A program made the translations under genes and the position numbers. Of a DNA stretch of 62,022 bases, positions 1 through 30,398 are shown piece by piece (position 1 is the first letter of the stretch; each line of letters opens with the position of its first letter). Source of the DNA: a virus (lineage: Duplodnaviria; Heunggongvirae; Uroviricota; Caudoviricetes); the IMG/VR virus record IMGVR_UViG_3300033489_000001, positions 1 to 62,022 of that record; one strand, given 5' to 3'. The notes under the pieces are model-generated. The model did no database searches. It had not been told where the DNA came from and worked only from the letters and a program-made list of their open reading frames with translations.

Positions 1-127
1 ACGCCATACCTATCTAAAGTTGTTTGACGTACCTTCTCTTTAACAGACTCGGCTTGAATAGCGTAAGGGACGCCATACCTATCTAAAGTTGTTTGACGTA
101 CCTTCTCTTTAACAGACTCGGCTTGAA
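1..127. repeat. 69-bp tandem coding repeat (23 aa, QAESVKEKVRQTTLDRYG)
   Basis: acgccatacctatctaaagttgtttgacgtaccttctctttaacagactcggcttgaa occurs at positions 1 and 70. Confidence 0.9.
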
Positions 128-1172
128 GCACATATTCAACGCCATAGTTAGCCTTGACAGTTTCAACGAGCTTGGCATATATCTCTGGGCTCTGTAAAGG
201 ATGTTCAACCCCATATCTCTCAAGGCAAGTATGTTCTCGTTTTTCTAAGAACTCAGCCAAAAGTAAAGGATGTGTTGCACCATATTTACGAATAAAAGTA
301 GCAACAGTTTTTTCCCAAAACCCATCAATCTTAGCCGGATGATCTACCCCATATTTCTCTATAAGAACTGCCCTGATCTCAGACTTACCTTGCTCAGAAG
401 CAAAGTAATACGTTCCGTAGTGTTCAAACGTGGTTTCAAGTTGACGCCGCCGGACATCAGGATCTTGATTTGTCCATTCAACCCCCCAGCGTTCAAGGTT
501 AGTTTGACGGGCTTTCTCAACTACTTCTTCCGAACAAGAGGGAGCAGGGCCACCATATTTTTCTTGGTTCGTCTCTGCAATCTTTTGTCTAATAACCGGT
601 GCAGCTAAAATTTCTTCGCTACCGTACCTCTGCAAGTTGGTAGATTGGGTTTTTGCCCTAATCTCAGGAGATTGATTAGGATTTTCAACACCATATTTAG
701 CAAGATTTGTCCGTCGTATCTTTTCCTGAGTCTCTGGTTTTGAAAAGGTGTTGTCTTTCCCGTAAAAGATAGTCCGCTTACCTACCAAAGATTCTTGCAC
801 CTTTTCAAAAATTATTGACTCCTTTGAGAAGACATTCTCGGCTCCATAACGCTCTTTGATCGTAGCTTTACGGCGCTCTTCGGCTTCTTCTATAAGACGG
901 GGGTGTGTAATACCTTCTCCATGCTTGGCTTGAAGGGTCTCAGCCATACGAGCCATTTGAACCGTGCCACGATGGCGAGACTTCCATACCTCACAAACAG
1001 AGCGATGACGCTTCATCTGCGTAAGCGAGGTAGCTTCATGCCCGCAAAGACAAACCCTAGGCGCGGTATCCCCTAATTGAGCTTGCCAACCCGAACACAC
1101 CGCCTTGTGCCGAGCGTTGATGCTATCAGAATTTGGAAAATGAGTTTGACAGTAGGGGCAGGTAACTGGCAT
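1..1172 (-). CDS. Partial CDS running off the left edge: N-terminal Cys/His zinc motifs, then many ~23-aa 'KYGVENP' repeats typical of phage homing-endonuclease-associated proteins
   Basis: Not in the ORF track. Manual translation from ATG 1172 gives MPVTCPYCQTHFPNS...TNLAKYGVENPNQSPEIRAKTQSTNLQRYG...CLERYGVEHPLQSPEI, with no stop seen before the edge. Confidence 0.75.
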   Translation of the reverse strand, partial: MPVTCPYCQTHFPNSDSINARHKAVCSGWQAQLGDTAPRVCLCGHEATSLTQMKRHRSVCEVWKSRHRGTVQMARMAETLQAKHGEGITHPRLIEEAEERRKATIKERYGAENVFSKESIIFEKVQESLVGKRTIFYGKDNTFSKPETQEKIRRTNLAKYGVENPNQSPEIRAKTQSTNLQRYGSEEILAAPVIRQKIAETNQEKYGGPAPSCSEEVVEKARQTNLERWGVEWTNQDPDVRRRQLETTFEHYGTYYFASEQGKSEIRAVLIEKYGVDHPAKIDGFWEKTVATFIRKYGATHPLLLAEFLEKREHTCLERYGVEHPLQSPEIYAKLVETVKANYGVEYVLQAESVKEKVRQTTLDRYGVPYAIQAESVKEKVRQTTLDRYG

Positions 1173-2156: not shown

Positions 2157-2486
2157 CTAGACTATATCCTTCATAACTCTTTGAGCCAAAGAGACAGCTT
2201 TATCAGCTTGCTCCATGAGTCTTAGTATATTTGTGCTTCCTCCTGAAAGGGTAATACCGGCCCCTGACCTATCTAATAAACGTATGTACATCTCAGTTAA
2301 TCCAATAGATTGACGTGTAGACGCTAAATTTTGATCGATGCCCTGCAAAGTTGATACTGGATCTGGCATTGCCAAAACTTCTTGACCAGCCATTTTTAGA
2401 GCTTGTTCAAAAGCCGTACGGGGATTGAAAGCTTTACGTTCTTGCTTAGCAAGGGCTTGTTCAAATGCGATACGGGAATTCATCAA
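2157..2486 (-). CDS. Small protein with two copies of the NxRxAFEQAL tag (putative internal head protein)
   Basis: MNSRIAFEQALAKQ...FNPRTAFEQALKMA. Confidence 0.7.
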   Translation of the reverse strand: MMNSRIAFEQALAKQERKAFNPRTAFEQALKMAGQEVLAMPDPVSTLQGIDQNLASTRQSIGLTEMYIRLLDRSGAGITLSGGSTNILRLMEQADKAVSLAQRVMKDIV

Positions 2487-2989
2487 TAACCCTCCCTAAT
2501 TGCCTGCGTAATTTCGTGAGCGAGCTTAGCATCCACGGGATGTACAAGATCACGAAGCGCTTGTAGTGAAACGGATTCAGTTTCCCTCTTTGTCCAACCT
2601 AAACGTTTAGCAATGCGCTCGTGCAACTTGTCCATGTCATATCTTGCTAAGACCTGTTCGAAAGCCGTACGGGGGTTCATAACTTCCTTCTTTCCCGCCT
2701 CTAACTCTGCTCCATGCTCTGGATCAAGTTCAAGTAGAAGGGCTTGGAACTCCCCAACATGCGTCTTCTCTTCTTTAGCAACATCAAGTAGAACTTCTCT
2801 TACTCGCTTATTCTGAGTGCCCGAAGCCATTTGTTCATAAAGGCTCACAGCATCAAGCTCAGCAATTATGCTCAACCGTAAGATTTCTCTATCAAGATCC
2901 TCTGACCTAACTTTATGCAGATCTATGGGGATGTCGGCTAACATAGCGGTCTTGGCTAGAGCTTGTTCAAATGCTTTACGTGGGTTCAT
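2483..2989 (-). CDS. Encapsulin-associated ferritin-like (EncFtn/Flp-type) domain flanked by MNPRxAFEQxL tags
   Basis: EILRLSIIAELDAVSLYEQ...VLLDVAKEEKTHVGEFQALLLELDPE matches the ferroxidase pattern ExxA...Y...EExxH of encapsulated ferritins. Confidence 0.85.
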   Translation of the reverse strand: MNPRKAFEQALAKTAMLADIPIDLHKVRSEDLDREILRLSIIAELDAVSLYEQMASGTQNKRVREVLLDVAKEEKTHVGEFQALLLELDPEHGAELEAGKKEVMNPRTAFEQVLARYDMDKLHERIAKRLGWTKRETESVSLQALRDLVHPVDAKLAHEITQAIREGY

Positions 2990-3003
2990 AGGTATTTCAC
3001 AAA

Positions 3004-3312
3004 TCAGTATTGTCCATATTTGTAAAGTATATCGCCTGCGGCCTGGGCTGGCGTTTCAGGTAAGAATGTGACCGTCTTTCTAGATTTGTCGGCAGCTATA
3101 AAATCTGCTTTCAGCCACATAAACCCGCGTCCTTTATCAATCCAAAAAAGTTTGGCTTTATGCCTACCTTGTGGCTCCATCTCTACGAGTTCTTTTTCAA
3201 CCTGTTGCTTGAACTCATCATAGAGTCCGCTCATTCTACGAGCCATGGTCCAGTCTTTATTATCAGCCGCTTGTTTTACAAGGGCTTGCTCAAATGCCTT
3301 ACGAGGGTTCAT
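3004..3312 (-). CDS. Tagged small protein (putative internal head protein)
   Basis: Begins MNPRKAFEQALVKQAA. Confidence 0.7.
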   Translation of the reverse strand: MNPRKAFEQALVKQAADNKDWTMARRMSGLYDEFKQQVEKELVEMEPQGRHKAKLFWIDKGRGFMWLKADFIAADKSRKTVTFLPETPAQAAGDILYKYGQY

Positions 3313-3315
3313 AGA

Positions 3316-4605
3316 TCAATCTCCAAACTCTTTCTTATTCACGGCAGCATCTAGATGTTTTTGTTGAACGCGCAAGTTAGATAAAGCTTTATCGTTCTTA
3401 TCTCCGTGAGCTTTCTCAATTTGTTTATTAACAAGATCTTGATGCTTACGAAGTTTTTTCAAGGGCCACTTAACCATGTGACTAATGACCTTTTCAGTTT
3501 GCGTCTTCGTTAATTTAGTCAAATCTTTTGGAAGATCCGAAAAGTCATCTTTTGCTTCAGTTGAGGATCCTTTTTCTTTCTTGACTGTATGTTTAGACTT
3601 ATCCGCTCCTGGATGTGCTTTCAGATAGTCAGCTTTAGCTTCCTCAGAGGGGAATTCCATCGCAACCCGCTCTATAAGAAGAGCATGTTCAAAAGCCATG
3701 CGAATACTTGCACTCTTCTTACGCTTTTTAGCCTTAGGTTCATCCTGCTCATATAAATCGGTCAGGTACTTGGCCAGCCTATCTAAATCTTTTTTATCAT
3801 GCTCATCAGCAACTGGGTCATCTTTCAGCGCTTTAAGCTCACGTGCCGCCCCTAACAACTTCTCACGAGGCACAGGCTTTCCATTTGCAAAACTAGCACC
3901 AACTTCCGTCAAAGTTGGGGAATCAGGACTCTGCCATTCCCGAAGTTTACGACCGGTATCTTTATGATGTTCTGCCGGTGTGAAATTCTCTGGCCCAAAT
4001 TCCTCTTCTTCTCTTTTCCTTTTTTCTTCATCCCCAGAAGGTTTCTCTTTACCTTTAGAAGGTTCTTCAGTCTTCTTCACTGTATGCTTAGCTTTGTCCG
4101 CTCCCGGATGCTCTTTAAGATACTCGGCTTTGGCTTCTTCGGTTGGGAACTCCATTGCTTGCTTAAGGGCTTGTCCTTTTCGTTTATAGATTAAAGTTGT
4201 AGTAGTAAAGCCGCCTTCGGTTTGCACAAGGCTATAACCAGCATTCTCTAAACGAAGTTTTTCACGCTCAGCTTTCGTAATACTTCTAGGATCATCCCAA
4301 TTTATCTTGATTTCCTTTAGTTCGGTAACCCCTTGTTTCTCTAACGCTTGTTCAAATGCTGTTCTAGGATTCATAGGTATCTCCAAATTAGCAGATTTGG
4401 GTTTTTCTTGAGGGATATCCCTAACCGCCATGACCTCATCATCATTAATCTTCTCAATTTGTTTCTTGACTTTATTTCTATGATCTTCACAGACAGGAAT
4501 ATAAGCCCGGCCATCCGCCCATATATAGCCTTTAGTAGCAGGATTTTTACAATACGAACATTTTTGAGGCTCGTCTATATTTCCTGCGTAATGATCCATT
4601 AGCAC
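3316..4605 (-). CDS. Modular, highly charged polyprotein-like protein with internal tags and a duplicated module
   Basis: N-terminal CxxC...CxxH finger; internal MNPRTAFEQALEKQG and IRMAFEHALLIERVA; two copies of MEFPxEEAKAxYLKxHPGADKxKHTVKK. Confidence 0.7.
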   Translation of the reverse strand: MLMDHYAGNIDEPQKCSYCKNPATKGYIWADGRAYIPVCEDHRNKVKKQIEKINDDEVMAVRDIPQEKPKSANLEIPMNPRTAFEQALEKQGVTELKEIKINWDDPRSITKAEREKLRLENAGYSLVQTEGGFTTTTLIYKRKGQALKQAMEFPTEEAKAEYLKEHPGADKAKHTVKKTEEPSKGKEKPSGDEEKRKREEEEFGPENFTPAEHHKDTGRKLREWQSPDSPTLTEVGASFANGKPVPREKLLGAARELKALKDDPVADEHDKKDLDRLAKYLTDLYEQDEPKAKKRKKSASIRMAFEHALLIERVAMEFPSEEAKADYLKAHPGADKSKHTVKKEKGSSTEAKDDFSDLPKDLTKLTKTQTEKVISHMVKWPLKKLRKHQDLVNKQIEKAHGDKNDKALSNLRVQQKHLDAAVNKKEFGD

Positions 4606-5436: not shown

Positions 5437-5778
5437 CTACTTTTGAAGAAAACGTGAAGCTACACGTTCAGTAAGAAGAACCCGTTCGAAAGTTTTGACC
5501 GGATCTACCGTCTCGTTCGCAGTCTTTTGCACTATTTCTCTAGCGCCATCAACAAGGAGTTTTTTCACTTTAAGAATATTTTTTCTATGCTCTTCTATCC
5601 AGTTCTGTATATCTTTTGGGGGAATACAGACATCTTTCATAGATCGAAGCCAATGTTCGAAAGTATCTAAGCTACTTAATTGCCCCTTGACCGAAGCTAT
5701 GCTGTCTACTAACTCAGCCAACAATTCCGAAGGGACTAAATCACGACTCAGTTTAACTTCTTTACTTACAGCCTTCAT
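5437..5778 (-). CDS. Hypothetical protein with a C-terminal tag variant
   Basis: Ends VDPVKTFERVLLTERVASRFLQK. Confidence 0.6.
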   Translation of the reverse strand: MKAVSKEVKLSRDLVPSELLAELVDSIASVKGQLSSLDTFEHWLRSMKDVCIPPKDIQNWIEEHRKNILKVKKLLVDGAREIVQKTANETVDPVKTFERVLLTERVASRFLQK

Positions 5779-5782
5779 AACA

Positions 5783-6166
5783 TTAAGATTCTTGAACTAT
5801 AAGTTGCCCAGAAGCGAATTTCACTTGATCTGAAGCTAATACCAATCGTGGAGTGCTCAAGTTACCAAAATACAGTACATTTCCCCCCGAACTAGTATCC
5901 ATGAGGGAAAAGGCTACAATAGTGTTCCAAGTTGCAGAAGCCACAGGAAATAAAACATCTGATACATTTGAAACTTGACCATTATTAGGAGTGGTAACAA
6001 TTACTGTCTGCCGACCGTACCCCCCACCTGTAACTTCAGTACCACCTCCTCCAACTCCAGGCGCTACTGTATATAAAGCCACCCAAATTGTAGACGGGGG
6101 CGTAAATGGAGTATTGCAAAGTGCAACGTTTAAAAGGTTGTTAGAAAGATAATAGGTCTTGGGCAT
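5783..6166 (-). CDS. Small tail/fibre structural protein (paralog of 7661..8059)
   Basis: VALYTVAP..GGTEVTGGGYGRQ...FPVASATW...LYFG pattern typical of phage minor tail proteins. Confidence 0.65.
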   Translation of the reverse strand: MPKTYYLSNNLLNVALCNTPFTPPSTIWVALYTVAPGVGGGGTEVTGGGYGRQTVIVTTPNNGQVSNVSDVLFPVASATWNTIVAFSLMDTSSGGNVLYFGNLSTPRLVLASDQVKFASGQLIVQES

Positions 6167-7660: not shown

Positions 7661-8059
7661 CTACGATTCCGATACGACCAACGCATCAATAGCGAAATTC
7701 AAAACGTCGCCTATGCCAACGTCCTTGGCCGTTCCCAAGAGACCGAAGTACAGTTGGTCATCTGTTCCGATAACGGCACTTGAACAGATTGCGGCAGCTT
7801 TGACGTTACCCCAAGAGGCACCAGCCGCTGCGAACGTAACCGCCGCAGCGTGGTTCATTGTTGAGCCAGCCGAAGGGGCAGCAAAGGTCACGGGCAGACG
7901 AACATATGTATCAGACCCTATCACTTCAGTCCCCTGCGTGGTCGCAGTCGGAGCCGTTGTGTAAAGAGCTACGTAAACCACCGCATCAGAGACGTACGCA
8001 ATATTTCTAAGCACAGCACTGAGAATTAGATTGGCTAGAGTTTCTTTTTTGGCAGCCAT
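7661..8059 (-). CDS. Small tail/fibre structural protein (paralog of 5783..6166)
   Basis: VALYTTAPT...GTEV...YVRLPVTF...LYFG. Confidence 0.65.
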   Translation of the reverse strand: MAAKKETLANLILSAVLRNIAYVSDAVVYVALYTTAPTATTQGTEVIGSDTYVRLPVTFAAPSAGSTMNHAAAVTFAAAGASWGNVKAAAICSSAVIGTDDQLYFGLLGTAKDVGIGDVLNFAIDALVVSES

Positions 8060-13121: not shown

Positions 13122-13199
13122 GTTATAAAGTCTCCTTTATAACTTCGGCCAAACAAGGAATCTTCATTCCTTGTTGTGATGCCATCCGTAAGCCACGGA
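13122..13199 (-). ncRNA. Putative omegaRNA scaffold hairpins overlapping the tnpB 3' end
   Basis: Three consecutive stems: 13185-13199, 13152-13175 (10 bp) and 13122-13143 (9 bp). Confidence 0.45.
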
Positions 13200-14268
13200 C
13201 TAAAATTTCTCTTGCTGAATTGTGATCTCTCCCTATTGAAAGACCACAATTAGGACAGAGGTGCCAACGATCTCTTAAGGTCTTAGGAACCTTAGTCCCA
13301 CACCGCGAACAATCCTGCGTAGTGCCCCTTGGATCAACCGCAACGACCGTCTTCCCAGCCTCTTCCGCTTTGAAATTCAGGCAAGCAGCATATATGGCCC
13401 AAGCAGCATCATGTATGGATTTGGGTTTAGCTTTATTAGACTTAGCCATCCCTTTGATGTCCAAATCCTCAATAGCTACTAGGTCATATTTAGAGACTAC
13501 CTCCTTAGCTAACTTTCTAGCAAAATCTAGGCGTTGGTTATGGGTATGTTGATAAGCCTTACTGACCAAAAGCTTAGCTCTCTTACGAGAATTGGATCTC
13601 TTGTTTTTCTTATGAACCAGCTTCTGCTGCCTATAGGCTATAAGAGCTTCTGATTTTTGGAAGAATCTTGGATTCTTAACCTCAGACCCATTGGAATGGA
13701 CAGCAAAATGAGTGAGGCCTACGTCTATACCGATGGCAGTCTTGATCTCAACTTTGGGAAGAGCCACACTCAAGTCACAAACGATAGAGGCTTCCCAACC
13801 CTTACAGGTTTTTCGAACGTGGGCTTCTAGAGGGGTTCCTTTGAGCGGCCGATAAAGATGAAGTCTGACTTGGCCAAATTTTGTAATTGTAAGGAGATTT
13901 CCCTTTATTATGGGACTCGGAAAGCTGAATGAATCGTAACGATCTTTGCCCTTGAATCGAGGGAATCCTGGCTTTTGGCCCTGTTTAATTCGTCTAAAAA
14001 AAGCCTTATAGGCCTTGTCTAATCGGTTGAGAGGAGATCTAAGAATAATAGCCGCGATAGATCCATAACCTTCAAGATCAGCTTCACGAAGCTCCGTTAA
14101 ATCTTTGTGCTGATCATACCTTGAAACGGTCTTCTTTTGCTTTCGGTAGGCCTCCCGTCTCTGCTCAAGGGCTGCATTATAGAGTCTTTGACAATTTAGA
14201 CGGATTTCATCTAAGCCAGCTTCTTCTTGCTGATTTAATCGAAGAGGATATCTGAAAGCTCTAATCAT
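13123..14268 (-). CDS. tnpB: IS200/IS605-family RNA-guided endonuclease TnpB with intact RuvC
   Basis: N-terminal AFRYPLRL...LYNAALE; RuvC GIDVG, IEDL and RDHNSA; zinc finger CSRCG...CPNCG. Confidence 0.93.
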   Translation of the reverse strand: MIRAFRYPLRLNQQEEAGLDEIRLNCQRLYNAALEQRREAYRKQKKTVSRYDQHKDLTELREADLEGYGSIAAIILRSPLNRLDKAYKAFFRRIKQGQKPGFPRFKGKDRYDSFSFPSPIIKGNLLTITKFGQVRLHLYRPLKGTPLEAHVRKTCKGWEASIVCDLSVALPKVEIKTAIGIDVGLTHFAVHSNGSEVKNPRFFQKSEALIAYRQQKLVHKKNKRSNSRKRAKLLVSKAYQHTHNQRLDFARKLAKEVVSKYDLVAIEDLDIKGMAKSNKAKPKSIHDAAWAIYAACLNFKAEEAGKTVVAVDPRGTTQDCSRCGTKVPKTLRDRWHLCPNCGLSIGRDHNSAREILVRGLRMASQQGMKIPCLAEVIKETL

Positions 14269-23714: not shown

Positions 23715-25661
23715 TTATGTTCTTTTCTGAAAAACTAACAACGGTTCCGTTCGCGCCTCTTGACCTATACTACCAATAGGTAAGGCTAAAGTTGAGATGT
23801 GAATAAAATCGGATTCCTTTGCGAACACTGTTAATTCATCCGCTATAGGATAAACAATATTCTGCATCTTGATATTTTTAGTGTTTACACAAAAAATCCC
23901 CCCTGGTTTAAGATAAGACTTAGATTTATTTACCAATGGGTGCAGGAAGTTTTCCACCCAAGCTGTCCAAGTTAGATAGCGTACCCAACTTTGTTTTACA
24001 TCATCCGAATAGCGCTCAACACAGTAATACGGAGGGCTAGTAAATACCAAATCCACTTGGGTGGTAGCATTAAGTGAAACATCTTCAAAAGCTTCATTAA
24101 TCAAGGTTAAAGAATTTGAATCAAAAAAAGAAGACAACTGTTTAAATGCTTCTGGTGCTTTTGGATGAGGCTCTATTCCAATATAACGCCTACCTGAAGC
24201 TAAAGTACCTGATGCCCTGCCCCCATAACCTGCGCAAGGATCAAGTACTACTCCATTTTCCGGACAAAAATGATCAACAATGGCTTTAGCCAAAGATGGT
24301 CTGAAATTCGTTGGCGCATGACTAATAGCTTGAATAGCTCTAAATATTCGTTTTACCGATAATCCGTGTCCTCTCCCCCATTGAAAATAAATAGCTTGTC
24401 TTAAAAGTTCCGGATTTGCCCAAGCCTGTCTAACAGAGGTTCCTCGGTAATATCTTGCATCAAATCGATAAGGAAAGCATTGGTTGCAAATAGAATAACC
24501 AGCTTGAGAAACCTTCTTGAATAACCCGTCAACATCCAAATAAGTAGGAGCTTTTCGTAATTGGTTAGCTTCTAGCAATAAAGATGCATGATCCCAGATT
24601 GTAACCGGAAACTCTACTTGCAAAAGGATATTTACTATATTTGACGCTTGTTCATAAATATCATCATCTTCCTCAGTGATAACCTGTTCTGCAATCAAGG
24701 AATCCACTTCTTCTATCGAAAGAATTGTTCTCTTTGGAGGCCTCCCAGCCTTATTACGCTCAAACCCATATTTATCTAATGCACGTCTAAGATTACTTCT
24801 TGGAACACCTAAAATCTTAGCAATTCTATCCGCAGGAATTCCTCGTTCAACAAAAGGTTTGATTGCATCTTTTGTTAAAATGTTTCTAGCCGAAGGCCCC
24901 CGCTTGCGAGATTTAAGTTCCAACTTATAGGACATGCAAGACGGGACATGTGGTGCAATCAAATCAACAAACTTAGTGATGGCATCACGTCCTCCAGCTA
25001 TACGAACAGTCGATTCTCCACCTTCCCCATAAATTCTTCCATCAAAACCAAATATAGACAGAATGTGGATTTGAACTTTCTGACTCCCTAAATCGGGACC
25101 AATAGCAAACCTTACATAAGAATCATTTTTCGAGCCATCGTCCAAATACCACACGGCAAGGGCAAGGGCATCAACCACTTTGGGGTCAAGAAGTTTAACG
25201 GTTTTATTTCCAAACCCTTCCGGATAAAACAATTTCCAATATGGTTTGAACACTCTGGCTGCATGAGTCCTAAATTGAAATCCTTTGTGTTTACCCTTGT
25301 TATGAGGAGTTAACTTCTGAACAGAAAAAGGCTCGAATTCTTTAACCTTCCACTCCAAATACCGTTTCTGCTGAATAGAATGAAACTCACAAAAACTAGC
25401 TGTATCTTCACCTGTGGAATACAGTCTACCATCACCAAGCATAGATCCAACTAAAATGGATTGCAGGCGACTTGATAGTAAAAGTGGTAAATTTAATCGA
25501 TCAGATTTAAGTATAGTCTGAATACCATACTTCTGACGTAGACGACTTATAGTTGTTTGTGTAGCACCATATTCCTTAGCTATCTGAGTATCAGTAAGAC
25601 GTTCATCTAAGTATAATTGACGTAAAATCTCCTCTGAAATAAATTGGCCACGAGCCGTCAT
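23715..25661 (-). CDS. LAGLIDADG homing endonuclease fused to an amino-DNA methyltransferase (start moved to ATG 25661)
   Basis: LAGLIDADG motifs ILVGSMLGDG and ALAVWYLDDGS; MTase motifs VLDPCAGYGG and VFTSPPY; promoter directly upstream of ATG 25661. Confidence 0.85.
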   Translation of the reverse strand: MTARGQFISEEILRQLYLDERLTDTQIAKEYGATQTTISRLRQKYGIQTILKSDRLNLPLLLSSRLQSILVGSMLGDGRLYSTGEDTASFCEFHSIQQKRYLEWKVKEFEPFSVQKLTPHNKGKHKGFQFRTHAARVFKPYWKLFYPEGFGNKTVKLLDPKVVDALALAVWYLDDGSKNDSYVRFAIGPDLGSQKVQIHILSIFGFDGRIYGEGGESTVRIAGGRDAITKFVDLIAPHVPSCMSYKLELKSRKRGPSARNILTKDAIKPFVERGIPADRIAKILGVPRSNLRRALDKYGFERNKAGRPPKRTILSIEEVDSLIAEQVITEEDDDIYEQASNIVNILLQVEFPVTIWDHASLLLEANQLRKAPTYLDVDGLFKKVSQAGYSICNQCFPYRFDARYYRGTSVRQAWANPELLRQAIYFQWGRGHGLSVKRIFRAIQAISHAPTNFRPSLAKAIVDHFCPENGVVLDPCAGYGGRASGTLASGRRYIGIEPHPKAPEAFKQLSSFFDSNSLTLINEAFEDVSLNATTQVDLVFTSPPYYCVERYSDDVKQSWVRYLTWTAWVENFLHPLVNKSKSYLKPGGIFCVNTKNIKMQNIVYPIADELTVFAKESDFIHISTLALPIGSIGQEARTEPLLVFQKRT

Positions 25662-25669
25662 AGTTGACC

Positions 25670-25698
25670 AGTATAAACTGTCCAAAAGTACCTGTCAA
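25670..25698 (-). promoter_or_regulatory. Sigma70-type promoter (near-leaderless)
   Basis: TTGACA-17 nt-TATACT, 8 nt before ATG 25661. Confidence 0.75.
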
Positions 25699-25891: not shown

Positions 25892-26770
25892 CTAGACACG
25901 AGTGATAACTACGCGGGTTAAACCACGCGGGTTGAACGCGCCCAGACCCAGATTCTCGAAACAACTGAAGCCAATTGTCCGAGCCTTTGGATCATCTGCC
26001 GACAAAACGGTGATCTCGGTGCGCACGGGTATCCTGCCGAATTGTTCGGGTTCGCAGCAAACATAGGCGAAGCCAGCCGGGACGAGCCTGGACGTGATAA
26101 TCTGGGCACCCCACAGAACGGATTGGAGGCCGGTCTTGAGCAGAGTGGCCTGACTCTCGATATCCAAGATGTCACGACCGAACTTACGGATGTCTGCGTA
26201 ATCCACGGAATTCATGTATACACGAGCTACACGAAGGTCATGGCGTTCTACCTCAGCAAACGCATCGGCAAGAACCGCAGGCGAGATCGGAGCAACCACC
26301 GGAACATCCGGGTTGGTTTGCGCCGGTAGCGTATCGTAACCCGAGATAGCAATGCTATCCAGGATTGCGAAAGCACGCTCATCTTCCGCCGCCTGAATCT
26401 GAGCCTTTGCCAAATCCTGAGCACGTTCGATTAAGTCGAACCGACGTTCTTTGATTTGGGTCAGCGGGATTTCAGGGTTAGAAGCGATCTCAAACAAGGG
26501 GAAGATCACGCGGCGTGGCTTCTGGATAGCAAGAATATTCTCGCCTTCCTCACCCACAACGTAAGCGGTCACATCCGGGTCCTTGTCATAGATCGGCAGG
26601 GCACCGTCCGGAAGCTGTTCGACCAGGAAGGTCTTACGACCAACGGCCGAATAGTCACGGCGGAGACGTAACGGTTGGATCATTGAAGCAGCGAGTTTTG
26701 CACGACCGGCAGCGGTCTTGATATACTCACTGATAACTTGCTGTTTGACTTCGTTGGATACTTGTCCCAT
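25892..26770 (-). CDS. Major capsid protein, HK97 fold
   Basis: Lies after protease, scaffold and decoration genes; GC-richer, apparently biased codon use; HK97-like segments (GRKTFLVEQL, VYMNSVDYADI, LWGAQIITS, GLGAFNPRGL). Confidence 0.85.
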   Translation of the reverse strand: MGQVSNEVKQQVISEYIKTAAGRAKLAASMIQPLRLRRDYSAVGRKTFLVEQLPDGALPIYDKDPDVTAYVVGEEGENILAIQKPRRVIFPLFEIASNPEIPLTQIKERRFDLIERAQDLAKAQIQAAEDERAFAILDSIAISGYDTLPAQTNPDVPVVAPISPAVLADAFAEVERHDLRVARVYMNSVDYADIRKFGRDILDIESQATLLKTGLQSVLWGAQIITSRLVPAGFAYVCCEPEQFGRIPVRTEITVLSADDPKARTIGFSCFENLGLGAFNPRGLTRVVITRV

Positions 26771-27541: not shown

Positions 27542-28876
27542 TTATTTGATACCAAAAGCATCCCGGACATCGGGAGCTGTCTGCCAAAGAGCAGATAGTG
27601 ACTCGATGGTAGCGTTATCGGACTTAGCACCGGCACCACCTAGCTTTGCAACTCCAGCAGTAGGACGAGTGCCTACCGTACGGGTAGACGCTGTACGAAT
27701 TGATGCTTGCTTCTCTTGCTCTTGCTCTTGTCCTTTACCTTGATCTTTTTCTTCCTGACTATCATCTTGAGCAAATAAGGTTCGCAGAACTTCATCCTCA
27801 GCACCTAGGTCATCCACTCCAACGTCCATCGGAGCTGGGTCCATCTGAATGTCCCCTTCAGCTAACCCACAACCGGCAAGCATTTGATCCAACACTTGTG
27901 CATCTTGCTGAGCTTGCTGTTGTTGATCCTGAACGGGAGCTTGAGCAGGAGTTTGCTGTTGAGCCTGCTGTTGTTGATCCTGAACAGGAGCTTGAGCAGG
28001 GGCTTGAACAGGGGCTTGTTGCTGTTGAGCTTGCTGTTGCTGCATAGCTTGCTGAATCATCTGTTGAACTTGCTGAGCTACTTGCTGTTGCTGAGCCTGT
28101 TGGCTCTGTTGTTGCTGTTGAGCCTGTTGCTGTTGATCTTGAGCAGGGGCTTGAGCAGGGGCTTGTTGTTGCTGTTGAGCCGTCTCAACCATCTGCTTGA
28201 TTTGCTCTTGAGCCTCAGCGAGCTTTCCGGCCTGAATTTGCTGAATCACCTGTTGCGCCATTTGCTGCATCTCGCCAGCTGTCTTGGCGGGCCAATTCTT
28301 GTTGGATTTCTCGTTTTGATCGTCTTTCTTGCCCTTAGCTTCTTCAGCTTGCTTTTCCTGACCCTGACCCTGATCCTTGGTATCGTCTTTCTTATCTTCT
28401 TCCTGCCCAGCTTGCTTCTCTTGCTCTTTGTCTCCGTCTTTGTCGTCATCTTCATCAGCGGCCATGCGCTTATGAGTATTGATCAACTCTTGATCCGGAA
28501 GGTGCATCAAAGCCACGGCCTGATCTTCGATAGCTTCCGTTGAAGCTTGCTTCAACATGAGCTGAGCTACCGCAATACAAAGATCAGCTTTCTTGAGCAA
28601 GACCTCTTTCGATGCCGTCTTCTCAGTATGATTAAATGTGTCAGGACGTACTTGGGGCATCCCAATCTCATCCCTGGCCGTTTGGTCATCCTTATACTCA
28701 GTCTCCCACGTATTCGGTGAGTGAACATCCTCAGCAAATGCTGATGGATCACCCGAAACATACTTATCCCAAGGAGGTTGAGGATGTTCCTGATTCATTG
28801 TATATGGGTCCGCTGTTTTTAGGGCAGCAAACTTAGTCTGAACTTCTTGACAATTCCAAGTTGAACGTTCACGCAT
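27542..28876 (-). CDS. Prohead scaffolding protein with a Gln-rich low-complexity core
   Basis: Lies between protease and MCP; acidic/Q-rich; short C-terminal helix LSALWQTAPDVRDAF. Confidence 0.7.
   Translation of the reverse strand: MRERSTWNCQEVQTKFAALKTADPYTMNQEHPQPPWDKYVSGDPSAFAEDVHSPNTWETEYKDDQTARDEIGMPQVRPDTFNHTEKTASKEVLLKKADLCIAVAQLMLKQASTEAIEDQAVALMHLPDQELINTHKRMAADEDDDKDGDKEQEKQAGQEEDKKDDTKDQGQGQEKQAEEAKGKKDDQNEKSNKNWPAKTAGEMQQMAQQVIQQIQAGKLAEAQEQIKQMVETAQQQQQAPAQAPAQDQQQQAQQQQQSQQAQQQQVAQQVQQMIQQAMQQQQAQQQQAPVQAPAQAPVQDQQQQAQQQTPAQAPVQDQQQQAQQDAQVLDQMLAGCGLAEGDIQMDPAPMDVGVDDLGAEDEVLRTLFAQDDSQEEKDQGKGQEQEQEKQASIRTASTRTVGTRPTAGVAKLGGAGAKSDNATIESLSALWQTAPDVRDAFGIK
27890..28270. repeat. 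Coding poly-Gln / QAPAQAPVQDQQQQAQ repeats
   Basis: Repeated gcttgagcagg and ctgttgttg units. Confidence 0.85.
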
Positions 28877-28937: not shown

Positions 28938-30398
28938 TCACGACCGTCCCAGGGCATATAAGCGACCTTTTTCTAACAATTGGGCCGCTTCATTACCTGT
29001 TACCCTTCCGCCTAATACCTGACGACAAGCCGCCAAGTATGTCTCTACATCTTCATATGGGCCTGTCCCGCCCACACTAAGGACAGTCCTATAAACTCTC
29101 TTTTCACCGGCTATAGATGATTTTTTAGTCATCAAATCCAAAACTCTAGATACGGCTAAGATTTCCCTACCGTTAAAGCCTGCTTTTTTCACCAGAGGCC
29201 AACCTCCATGATTATGAAGGATTAGGCCATAAAGAACTCTCTTACCTTCTTTTGATTTTCCAACAAAAGAAAACACCAAATTAGCAACTTTACGCCATTT
29301 TGGTTGTTGTATTGCCGATCGAATTAGAGATTCGTTCTGTTTATTAGGATTCGCATCCCGAACAGCATTCACTTCCCCCTTACTAATTTCTTTACGTACT
29401 CTCTCTATTACTTGTTCCCGTAAAGTGTTAGTTAGATCTGCAACGGCTTTTTGAATTGGGTCTTCTTCTTTAGATTGTTCAGGTGTCGGCCCACTCTCCG
29501 ATGGAGGATCATCTGCCCACTTTTGATAAGCAGCCTTGAGCATGGCATTAGGGTCAACTACTGGAGGGGGTAGCGTAAATGCCATGTGCATTTTATCTTC
29601 TACCTCTTGAATTTCTTCAGCCGAAAGGATGCTTCTAAGAACTGCACCTCTAAATGCTGGATTAGCAACCCATGACGCTTCTATAAAGCGCACTGAGGAT
29701 GGATCTCGGAAGTTCCCACACAGCTCTGCGGTCTTAGTTTTATGGCCTAATTCATTTACGAATTCTTGGCCTTTAAAAAACTTAACACAATTGCAAAGTT
29801 GAGTCTCGTCGAGGGCTACATTCCCACATTTTGTACACGTCGTAGTCGCTGTACTGCAACCCATCGACAAAGTACCAAGCTGGCCGTTCTTGATAGCCCT
29901 AATCAACGAGGCGTGTTTCAACTCATTGGCAATCAAGATATCTATATATATAGAATCACCAACATCCCGAGCCGCCGCATCAATAATACGACCTCTTGAT
30001 AATTCAGGAATTTGCACATGCTCTACGTAGCTGAATGCACCAATGAAAGTCTTGAATGTAGTAAGCAGAAGCTTACGCTCGAACGAGTCGTTATTATTGT
30101 TAATAAAATTAACAGTGTTAGGAGTGATATAGTAATCAGAATACTTCCGATCGATTTCAAAACCATCTATGAAATGCCGACCTAGTGGAGCTAAAGAGTT
30201 CTCAACATCTACAGAAGCCACGATAGTCGCGTGGCTCAACATATACTTAGATGGATCGTACTCTTGAAGAATTATCTGAGCAGTTTTCTTCTGAAAATCT
30301 GGAGCAGGGATCACTGCATTACGACGCAAAATGTCCCATTCGGCAAATTTAATGTCGGGCTTTTGCAGCGTTGCTCTAGCGTATTTGAGAAAGGCCAT
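28938..30398 (-). CDS. Prohead (maturation) protease, HK97/herpes assemblin-like, with a zinc-ribbon insert
   Basis: NNNNDSF, YVEH, GRIIDA, LSMGC, CTKCG...CNC and FIEASWVANPAF. Confidence 0.85.
   Translation of the reverse strand: MAFLKYARATLQKPDIKFAEWDILRRNAVIPAPDFQKKTAQIILQEYDPSKYMLSHATIVASVDVENSLAPLGRHFIDGFEIDRKYSDYYITPNTVNFINNNNDSFERKLLLTTFKTFIGAFSYVEHVQIPELSRGRIIDAAARDVGDSIYIDILIANELKHASLIRAIKNGQLGTLSMGCSTATTTCTKCGNVALDETQLCNCVKFFKGQEFVNELGHKTKTAELCGNFRDPSSVRFIEASWVANPAFRGAVLRSILSAEEIQEVEDKMHMAFTLPPPVVDPNAMLKAAYQKWADDPPSESGPTPEQSKEEDPIQKAVADLTNTLREQVIERVRKEISKGEVNAVRDANPNKQNESLIRSAIQQPKWRKVANLVFSFVGKSKEGKRVLYGLILHNHGGWPLVKKAGFNGREILAVSRVLDLMTKKSSIAGEKRVYRTVLSVGGTGPYEDVETYLAACRQVLGGRVTGNEAAQLLEKGRLYALGRS

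What the first reader, a model, noticed from the sequence alone, without database searches (positions are those of the whole stretch)
2483..2989. Encapsulin-type ferritin domain as an apparent cargo of a phage HK97 capsid
Seen: residues ~17-103 carry the EncFtn/Flp ferroxidase pattern (IIAELDAVSLYEQ...EEKTHVGEF...LDPE), sandwiched between two tags. Known: this family is normally loaded into, or fused to, family 1 encapsulins, which share the HK97 fold with phage capsids. The MCP here is compact (292 aa). Inference: the phage has captured an encapsulin cargo and retargeted it to its own head, perhaps to sequester iron, protect packaged DNA from Fenton damage, or deliver it to the host. This would be a functional bridge between virus capsids and encapsulins.
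Basis: partly seen in the sequence, partly recalled or inferred. Interest (0 to 1): 0.8.

Follow-up and report, generated by a model that had tools for sequence, protein, structure and literature searches.

The report
Leader-tagged encapsulin-type ferritin in huge phage
A 411-kb phage encodes a genuine encapsulin-type "half-ferritin" iron oxidase flanked by two copies of a short peptide leader shared with neighbouring genes, so it is probably loaded into the phage head as phage T4 loads its internal proteins, though packaging is not shown.

Summary
ORF 2483-2989 (minus strand, 168 aa) reads leader (1-11), complete two-helix EncFtn-type ferritin (16-103), second leader (104-114), small helical domain (118-168). 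The best solved match is the Pyrococcus furiosus EncFtn domain that is fused to an encapsulin shell (E 7.6e-24). All iron ligands are conserved, and every top fold match is an EncFtn.

The closest relatives (about 70% identity) are abundant shell-less 93-aa proteins of CPR bacteria and DPANN archaea. They are not encapsulin cargo with a targeting peptide, and the phage genome has no encapsulin gene.

The leader (invariant P-R-x-A-F-E) occurs only in a variable gene islet. That islet is shared by three phages whose capsid proteins are 95-96% identical to one another, and two of them lack the ferritin. This resembles the T4 internal-protein locus and its capsid-targeting sequence.

In other viral contigs the same ferritin carries T4-like leaders shared with neighbouring genes, or is fused to a portal protein or to DUF2213. 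Head loading is therefore likely but unproven, and direct binding of the leader to the capsid protein remains untested.

This scan has noted the same theme on other phage DNA before.

The parts
2483..2989 (-). 168-aa ORF (P0001): leader 1, EncFtn-type half-ferritin, leader 2, small helical domain. Its stop codon overlaps the next gene's ATG (TGATG).
2957..2989 (-). Leader/tag 1, residues 1-11 (MNPRKAFEQAL); predicted helix
2681..2944 (-). EncFtn-type two-helix ferritin domain, residues 16-103. It is colinear with the whole cellular protein of about 93 aa, including that protein's own start (ML..IPIDL). Iron ligands are E44, Y51, E74 and H77.
2648..2680 (-). Leader/tag 2, residues 104-114 (MNPRTAFEQVL), at the junction between the two modules
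2486..2638 (-). C-terminal helical domain of about 50 aa, function unknown. In the related phage LR745208.1 it is a stand-alone ORF of about 53 aa (56% identity).
2157..2486 (-). 109-aa tagged protein with two tandem leaders at its N-terminus
3004..3312 (-). 102-aa tagged protein with an N-terminal leader
3316..4605 (-). 429-aa multi-module protein with an internal leader (coding 4342-4374) and a divergent copy (IRMAFEHAL, near 3693). It also carries a repeated motif, FP(T/S)EEAKA.YLK.HPGADK.KHTVKK.
5437..5778 (-). 113-aa protein ending in a divergent tag-like motif (VKTFERVLL); upper edge of the tag islet
5783..6166 (-). Gp80-like fibre protein (PF23140, E 5e-37), immediately upstream of the islet. 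A paralogue lies at 7661-8059. The same synteny is seen in sister phages G001 and G002.
25892..26770 (-). Major capsid protein, 292 aa, phage G type HK97 fold
28938..30398 (-). Head maturation protease candidate (phrog_18299, E 1.3e-9, residues 100-253). Related to capsid maturation proteases of cluster C mycobacteriophages and Gordonia phages.
27542..28876 (-). Gln-rich 444-aa protein between protease and capsid genes; scaffold candidate by position only
   Evidence: sequence and position only

Best explanation
The ORF encodes two cargo modules, a complete EncFtn-type di-iron ferroxidase and a small helical domain. Each is preceded by an 11-residue leader, M-N-P-R-(K/T)-A-F-E-Q-(A/V)-L.

I read the leader as this phage clade's counterpart of the T4 capsid-targeting sequence. 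It would take the protein into the assembling prohead core. The head maturation protease would then cut it after the invariant Glu (an A-x-E site). This would release a free half-ferritin of about 100 aa inside the head. That protein would dimerise or oligomerise to form its iron sites.

Its likely job is to oxidise Fe(II) near the 411-kb DNA, in the capsid and/or on ejection into the host, and so limit Fenton damage.

Shown: the domain identity and intact ligands; the shared leader under peptide-level selection; the variable islet; and the repeated association of this domain with head-addressing devices in other phages.

Inferred: head targeting, cleavage after Glu, ejection, and the protective role.
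For: Domain identity (see the observation check):
- Best solved match 5n5e, E 7.6e-24; every top fold hit is an EncFtn structure.
- The ligands E44, Y51, E74 and H77 are invariant across 48 homologues.

The leader:
- 24 distinct copies in 4 phage lineages share an invariant P-R-x-A-F-E. The sequence after it diverges completely.
- Copies within the window differ mostly at synonymous sites; for example, two copies differ at 5 nt and 0 aa.
- The leader sits at N-termini and at module junctions. P0002 and P0122 have tag-ferritin-tag architectures, and G001 has a 1014-aa protein with three internal leaders.
- The invariant block ends at Glu with Ala at P3. This fits the A-X-E site cut by the SPN3US prohead protease (PMC10052503).

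The locus:
- Sister phages G001 and G002 have 95-96% identical MCPs and the same flanking fibre gene. They carry 14 and 10 tag-pattern matches but different modules and no ferritin.
- More distant relatives (MCP 86-90% identical) lack the islet.
- This matches the variable T4 internal-protein locus, whose 10-aa capsid-targeting sequence loads proteins into the head and is cut off (PMC9026906).

Other phages:
- In other IMG/VR contigs the same module has 9-14-residue leaders ending in x-x-E, for example MKKTLNFDDFLNE and MKNFYEFMKINE. Adjacent small ORFs share these leaders.
- One such record has a Gp23-family capsid gene.
- The domain is also fused to a portal-like protein (L040) and to DUF2213 (L042).

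Analogue: phage G virion proteomics reports a Dps-type ferritin-like protein (PMC12484599). It is unrelated in sequence.
Against: - There are no virion data for this uncultured phage.
- The islet lies about 20 kb from the head-assembly genes and next to fibre genes, not in the head module.
- The protease is not demonstrably of the T4 gp21 type. Pfam and PDB sequence searches gave nothing and its model was unusable, so cutting after Glu is only an analogy.
- The leader motif is absent from the scaffold candidate, the MCP and the protease, so no shared processing site links it to known head proteins.
- Cultured relatives (phage G, Tunturi_5) lack the tag, so no proteome can be transferred.
- EncFtn proteins have no storage cavity, and a DNA-filled head leaves little room for mineral, so the proposed role is speculative.
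Confidence: 0.5

Rival explanations
1. Cytoplasmic auxiliary gene. The ferritin works free in the infected cell to manage iron or oxidative stress late in infection. The shared leader serves some other purpose, such as docking to another phage structure, a chaperone or a regulator.
For: - The closest relatives are free cellular proteins with no shell.
- The islet is not in the head module.
- In the related contigs L004-L009 the tagged ferritin lies next to an actin-like (Volactin) gene, which could point to another destination.
Against: - It does not explain why the same module has acquired different short N-terminal leaders ending in Glu in several phage lineages, sharing them with neighbouring genes.
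- It does not explain the fusions to portal-like and DUF2213 proteins.
Confidence: 0.22
2. Encapsulin-style loading. The leader binds the inner face of the compact HK97-fold capsid protein directly, as encapsulin targeting peptides bind their shell.
For: - The domain's closest solved relative is fused to an encapsulin shell.
- The MCP is small and has no delta domain.
Against: - The leader is N-terminal or internal, helical, and unlike known encapsulin targeting peptides.
- It is confined to phages with at least 95% identical MCPs. Phages whose MCPs are 86-90% identical lack it, so it does not track the shell protein.
- In T4 the equivalent signal is described as taking proteins into the scaffolding core (PMC9026906, PMC10229621).
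Confidence: 0.1
3. Structural use. The EncFtn module is used as an oligomerisation hub (dimer or decamer) that organises internal or fused proteins, and iron chemistry is secondary.
For: The domain is embedded in many multi-domain proteins: topoisomerase IB, NUDIX, PrimPol, InPase, portal-like. In those a multimerising unit would be useful.
Against: All four iron-site residues are invariant in the tagged and the fused copies alike. That argues for retained metal binding.
Confidence: 0.1
4. The repeated tag is only a recombination scar or a translational feature of the DNA and has no function as a peptide.
For: - Modules are shuffled at tag junctions.
- A Met is kept 1-2 residues before most internal tags, which suggests gene fusions.
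Against: - Copies differ mainly at synonymous positions while the peptide is invariant.
- The motif is kept across lineages of different base composition.
Confidence: 0.03

Closest known systems
Pyrococcus furiosus EncFtn domain fused to the encapsulin shell (PfV; PDB 5N5E, 2E0Z) and other EncFtn-encapsulin fusions
   Same: - Same two-helix half-ferritin; 54-56% identity in the fold alignment.
- E 7.6e-24 by sequence, with the same Glu / Tyr / Glu-x-x-His ligands.
- Six metagenomic relatives carry Linocin_M18 after the domain.
   Different: - Here there is no shell fusion, and the genome has no encapsulin gene.
- The module is preceded and followed by a phage leader.
- In the tree the phage copies do not group with the encapsulin fusions.
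Short shell-less ferritin-like proteins (s-FLP; e.g. Nitrosomonas europaea NE0167, PDB 3K6C; PMC11202242)
   Same: - Length of about 93 aa, no targeting peptide, no encapsulin neighbour.
- The phage domain is colinear with them from their start Met to their GKKEV end, at up to 71-77% identity to metagenomic members.
   Different: The phage copy has an added N-terminal leader and is fused through a second leader to another module.
T4 capsid-targeting sequence and internal-protein (IPI/IPII/IPIII) locus
   Same: - A short N-terminal leader of about 10 aa shared by otherwise unrelated small proteins.
- The leader ends in Glu.
- The genes lie in a variable locus whose content differs between close relatives (PMC9026906).
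   Different: - Different leader sequence.
- The leader is also used internally, between modules of polyproteins.
- The capsid (phage G type) and the protease lineage are different.
- No experimental evidence of loading or cleavage.
A-X-E propeptide processing by the prohead protease of giant phage SPN3US (PMC10052503)
   Same: The invariant A-F-E of the leader fits the A-X-E (P3-P2-P1) site.
   Different: The protease here could not be assigned to that family. The invariant block is longer (P-R-x-A-F-E) than a bare cleavage site.
Dps-type ferritin-like protein gp346 reported in the phage G virion proteome (PMC12484599)
   Same: A ferritin-superfamily protein reported in particles of a phage with the same type of capsid protein; proposed there to protect DNA.
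   Different: - It is a four-helix Ferritin/Dps domain (PF00210) with no sequence similarity to this protein.
- It is encoded among replication genes and has no leader.
- That proteome also lists ClpP and ClpX, so carry-over is possible.

Membership tests
EncFtn / encapsulated ferritin (Pfam PF22277; NCBIfam TIGR04535, NF058679) | Two-helix half-ferritin fold | tested here: met
   AF2 model pLDDT 87.7 with helices 29-57 and 61-88. Top Foldseek hits are 5n5e, 5da5, 7s8t, 3k6c, 5n5f.
EncFtn / encapsulated ferritin (Pfam PF22277; NCBIfam TIGR04535, NF058679) | Ferroxidase-centre ligands Glu, Tyr (+7) and Glu-x-x-His (+30), as at the R. rubrum positions E32/Y39/E62/H65 | tested here: met
   E44, Y51, E74 and H77 are invariant in 48 homologues. 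The spacing is identical. The PDB titles of the E32A, E62A and H65A mutants appear.
EncFtn / encapsulated ferritin (Pfam PF22277; NCBIfam TIGR04535, NF058679) | Score above the curated family thresholds | tested here: inconclusive
   Pfam EncFtn-like 27.1 against 27 (just met). TIGR04535 48.1 against 125 and EncB_fam 65.2 against 90 (not met).
EncFtn / encapsulated ferritin (Pfam PF22277; NCBIfam TIGR04535, NF058679) | Association with an encapsulin shell: a C-terminal targeting peptide, a fusion, or an adjacent shell gene | tested here: not met
   There is no targeting peptide; the C-terminus is leader 2 plus another domain. No Linocin_M18 is found in the 411-kb genome, while the control genomes were positive.
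EncFtn / encapsulated ferritin (Pfam PF22277; NCBIfam TIGR04535, NF058679) | Decamer assembly and ferroxidase activity | not testable with these tools
   Needs purified protein.
Short shell-less FLP (s-FLP) | About 90-100 aa EncFtn-like unit without targeting peptide or encapsulin neighbour | tested here: met
   The domain (residues 16-103) is colinear with the stand-alone proteins of about 93 aa. Contexts L010 and L011 have no encapsulin.
Rubrerythrin proper | Four-helix di-iron domain in one chain plus a rubredoxin-like domain | tested here: not met
   Only the first half of the Pfam Rubrerythrin profile is matched (positions 1-78 of 137). The model has one hairpin and no rubredoxin domain.
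T4-type capsid-targeting sequence / internal proteins | Short leader shared by unrelated small proteins encoded in a variable cluster | tested here: met
T4-type capsid-targeting sequence / internal proteins | Leader ends at a prohead-protease site with Glu at P1 | tested here: inconclusive
   The invariant A-F-E fits A-X-E, but the protease's family and specificity are unknown.
T4-type capsid-targeting sequence / internal proteins | Proteins present in the virion, processed, and ejected | not testable with these tools
   The phage is uncultured, and the cultured relatives lack the tag.

The most novel reading that the evidence does not exclude
EncFtn-type ferroxidases are a recurrent internal cargo of large phage heads. 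They would have been recruited independently through at least three addressing devices: the P-R-x-A-F-E leader here, T4-like leaders ending in x-x-E, and direct fusion to portal or DUF2213 head proteins. If so, iron-oxidising cargo inside HK97-fold shells is shared between viruses and encapsulins and may have passed from one to the other.
Probability: 0.35. Interest if true: 0.8.

Novelty: new variant of a known kind. Interest (0 to 1): 0.62.

Why it matters
Encapsulins are thought to descend from HK97-type phage capsids, but no shared cargo has been described. A ferritin of the encapsulin type carried inside real phage heads would be the first functional link between the two.

It would also add a new class of phage internal or ejected protein, concerned with iron or oxidative protection of very large genomes.

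The 11-residue leader would be useful in itself as a candidate portable loading signal for phage G type capsids. It also gives a direct way to list the internal proteins of an uncultured clade of huge phages.

I found no paper in the searched library that reports EncFtn proteins in phage heads.

Tried and rejected
- Complex prediction with the MCP (alignment A2) and a 32-residue leader peptide (alignment A3) returned no answer (score 0.00, controls not run). It counts neither for nor against binding.
- The structure model of the protease (residues 1-300, 42-row alignment) had pLDDT 43.5 and was unusable, so no fold assignment was made. Pfam, NCBIfam and PDB sequence searches of the protease gave nothing.
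- I looked for a resemblance between the leader and the scaffold candidate's C-terminus (RDAF against RKAF). That C-terminus is not conserved in phage G or Tunturi_5, so I dropped the idea.
- I asked whether tag presence follows protease divergence rather than MCP divergence. Protease identities form a continuum (60-83%) and only G001 and G002 carry the tag, so the test was not decisive.
- Pfam and PHROG searches of ten other tagged modules, and PHROG searches of ten other fused forms, found no informative families.
- The C-terminal domain gave no informative Atlas match.
- Phage G gp346 is not a homologue.
- The tag is absent from LR745208.1, phage G, Tunturi_5 and Eggerthella phage LE2-3.

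Full report
**What is there**

The window is the first 62 kb of a 411,618-bp virus record with direct terminal repeats. Nearly all genes are on the minus strand.

The major capsid protein (25892-26770, 292 aa) belongs to the phage G type. It matches phrog_2522 at E 3.6e-49. It is 39% identical to Bacillus phage G gp27, 46% to Tunturiibacter phage Tunturi_5, and 83% to the 485-kb metagenomic phage LR745208.1. More than a hundred metagenomic clusters, on contigs up to 620 kb, are 84-96% identical to it. This is a true huge-phage capsid gene. A head maturation protease candidate (28938-30398, phrog_18299) and a Gln-rich scaffold candidate lie upstream of it. The genome has no encapsulin gene.

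**The ORF**

ORF 2483-2989 (minus strand, 168 aa, P0001) has four parts:
- residues 1-11: MNPRKAFEQAL;
- residues 16-103: a two-helix ferritin-like unit;
- residues 104-114: MNPRTAFEQVL;
- residues 118-168: a small helical domain.

The ferritin unit hits Pfam Rubrerythrin (35.7 bits) and EncFtn-like (27.1 bits, cut-off 27). It also hits NCBIfam EncB_fam (65 bits) and TIGR04535 (48 bits), both significant but below their trusted cut-offs.

Against solved structures the best sequence hits are the P. furiosus EncFtn domain (5n5e, E 7.6e-24) and the same domain in the PfV encapsulin fusion (2e0z). M. xanthus EncC and EncB follow. The AF2 model (pLDDT 87.7) finds only EncFtn structures at the top of a PDB fold search.

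E44, Y51, E74 and H77 are invariant across 48 homologues. Their spacing matches the R. rubrum ferroxidase-centre residues; the PDB titles of the mutant structures appear.

**Where the module came from**

A search of 5.8 billion proteins returned thousands of stand-alone proteins of about 93 aa. They come from Patescibacteria, DPANN archaea and Actinomycetota and are about 70% identical over the domain. The phage domain is colinear with them from their own start (MLSKIPIDL...) to their GKKEV end. A whole small gene was therefore captured and a leader was added in front of it.

Two long cellular contigs that carry such genes have no encapsulin nearby. The family also includes EncFtn-encapsulin fusions (six checked). 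It further includes fusions to topoisomerase IB, NUDIX, PrimPol and InPase domains.

In a tree of 133 domain sequences (93 columns, weakly resolved), the five tag-bearing phage copies fall together among stand-alone and fused forms. The encapsulin fusions cluster elsewhere. The likely source is a shell-less short ferritin-like protein, the class reviewed as s-FLP in PMC11202242. It is not a cargo that carried an encapsulin targeting peptide.

**The leader**

In the 411-kb genome, sequences within three substitutions of NPRTAFEQAL occur six times, all within 2157-4605. Two more divergent copies lie at about 3693 and 5490. The coding pattern for P-R-x-A-F-E occurs 5 times in the window against 0.06 expected.

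Copies differ mostly at synonymous positions. For example, two copies with identical peptides differ at 5 nucleotides. Selection therefore acts on the peptide.

A scan of IMG/VR found the leader in three more contigs. Together with metagenomic relatives this gave 24 distinct copies, with an invariant P-R-x-A-F-E, a nearly invariant Asn before it, and unrelated sequence after it.

The leader stands at N-termini and at junctions between modules. Examples are tag-ferritin-tag-X in P0002, X-tag-ferritin-tag-Y in P0122, ferritin-tag-Y in P0003 and P0004, and a 1014-aa protein with three internal leaders in G001. None of the other tagged modules matches a known family.

**The locus**

Phages G001 (398 kb, complete) and G002 (416 kb) have MCPs 95-96% identical to this one. 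They have the same Gp80-like fibre gene directly upstream of the tag cluster. They carry 14 and 10 matches to the tag pattern. Their modules are different and they have no ferritin.

Eighteen other long contigs with MCPs 86-94% identical show only background counts. In three complete genomes among them, the genes that flank the islet here lie next to each other or nearly so. LR745208.1, phage G and Tunturi_5 also lack the tag. The islet is therefore an accessory cassette region that turns over quickly.

**How it most likely works**

The closest known system is the T4 internal-protein locus. There, a 10-residue N-terminal capsid-targeting sequence takes unrelated small proteins into the prohead core and is removed by the prohead protease. 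The set of internal proteins varies between related phages (PMC9026906, PMC10229621).

The invariant block of the leader ends at Glu with Ala at P3. This fits the A-X-E site of the SPN3US prohead protease (PMC10052503). Leaders placed between modules would then act as release sites.

I therefore propose head targeting followed by cleavage after E8 and E111. This would free a half-ferritin of about 100 aa and a domain of about 57 aa. This step is inference. The protease could not be assigned to a family, and there are no virion data.

**Independent support from other phages**

The domain occurs in 38 IMG/VR loci. In at least a dozen of them it has a short N-terminal leader ending in x-x-E placed directly before the native start. 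Examples are MKKTLNFDDFLNE, MKNFYEFMKINE, MKKYEEFKKMNE and MEKRISTYDEFVNE. From my own knowledge these resemble the T4 sequence MKTYQEFIAE.

In several loci the adjacent small ORFs share the leader. For example, MDKKTLNFDDFITE and MKRTKDFDTFTE flank the ferritin gene in L037. One such record has a Gp23-family capsid gene above the Pfam cut-off, and three have weak Peptidase_S77 hits.

In L040 the domain forms the C-terminus of a portal-like protein (Phage_portal_3, E 5.8e-8, just under the cut-off). In L042 it is fused to DUF2213. From my own knowledge, DUF2213 is a family of phage head modules.

Eggerthella phage LE2-3 has a 948-aa protein with the domain, three genes upstream of its capsid gene.

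Notes from earlier stages of this scan describe the same theme in other phages. I tested two of their claims here: leaders of the T4 type, and fusion to portal or head proteins. Both held.

**Function**

The iron ligands are intact in all tagged copies, so metal chemistry is probably retained. A role in limiting iron-dependent damage to a very large genome is reasonable, whether in the head or at entry into the host. It parallels the Dps-type protein reported in phage G particles (PMC12484599). That protein is not homologous, and that proteome also lists cytoplasmic proteins. I rate the protective role at about 0.3.

**Verdict**

The module is an EncFtn-family protein of the shell-less type. 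The leader system is a new variant of the T4 capsid-targeting principle in a phage G type clade. Head loading is likely but unproven.

Noticed in passing
L040:3442-5220 and L042:4985-6112 (IMG/VR contigs): In L040 the EncFtn-like domain forms the C-terminus of a portal-like protein (Phage_portal_3, E 5.8e-8). In L042 it forms the N-terminus of a DUF2213 protein. Both are direct fusions to head proteins in other phages.
   Followed up: partly
L037:5546-6520; also L034, L025, L041, L031: The ferritin gene and its neighbours form clusters of small genes that share T4-like N-terminal leaders ending in x-x-E, much like a T4 internal-protein locus.
   Followed up: partly
window 3316-4605; L016:9480-12521: The motif (A/V)MEFP(T/S)EEAKA.YLK.HPGADK.KHTVKK occurs twice in the 429-aa tagged protein and several times in the 1014-aa tagged protein of G001. 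It matches no known family.
   Followed up: no
L004:4049-5071; L140:7719; L141:7959; L142:10070: An actin-like gene (Pfam Volactin in L004-L007) is conserved a few kb from the position of the tag islet in this clade of huge phages. In L004-L009 it directly follows the tagged genes.
   Followed up: no
window 23715-25685: One 656-aa ORF combines HTH domains, a LAGLIDADG endonuclease domain and an N6/N4 DNA methylase domain. It lies just downstream of the capsid gene.
   Followed up: no
window 13123-14268: TnpB-like gene (phrog_506, E 3.8e-85) within the structural gene block. A similar gene sits beside the tagged ferritin in L004.
   Followed up: no
P0391, P0396, P0400, P0429 (relatives of the protease at 28938-30398): Some homologues of the head protease in related phages are 620-690 aa long and carry intein domains (PF14890, PF05203).
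   Followed up: no
P0265, P0245, P0195, P0229, P0206, P0164: The same half-ferritin domain is embedded in large proteins with topoisomerase IB, NUDIX, PrimPol or InPase domains. These architectures recall the polyvalent proteins of phages and plasmids (PMC5512222).
   Followed up: partly
L001 (LR745208.1), several intergenic sites: A repeated DNA element is scattered between genes of this related 485-kb phage. In one frame it translates as LTTLSV(W/R)GGDFL(V/A)KS.
   Followed up: no
window 3-1172: An ORF that runs off the window edge encodes a DUF7487 protein (E 3.3e-55) with internal repeats of about 30 aa (RYG...E...). It is followed by a 304-aa protein (1236-2150) that is conserved in relatives lacking the tag.
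   Followed up: no
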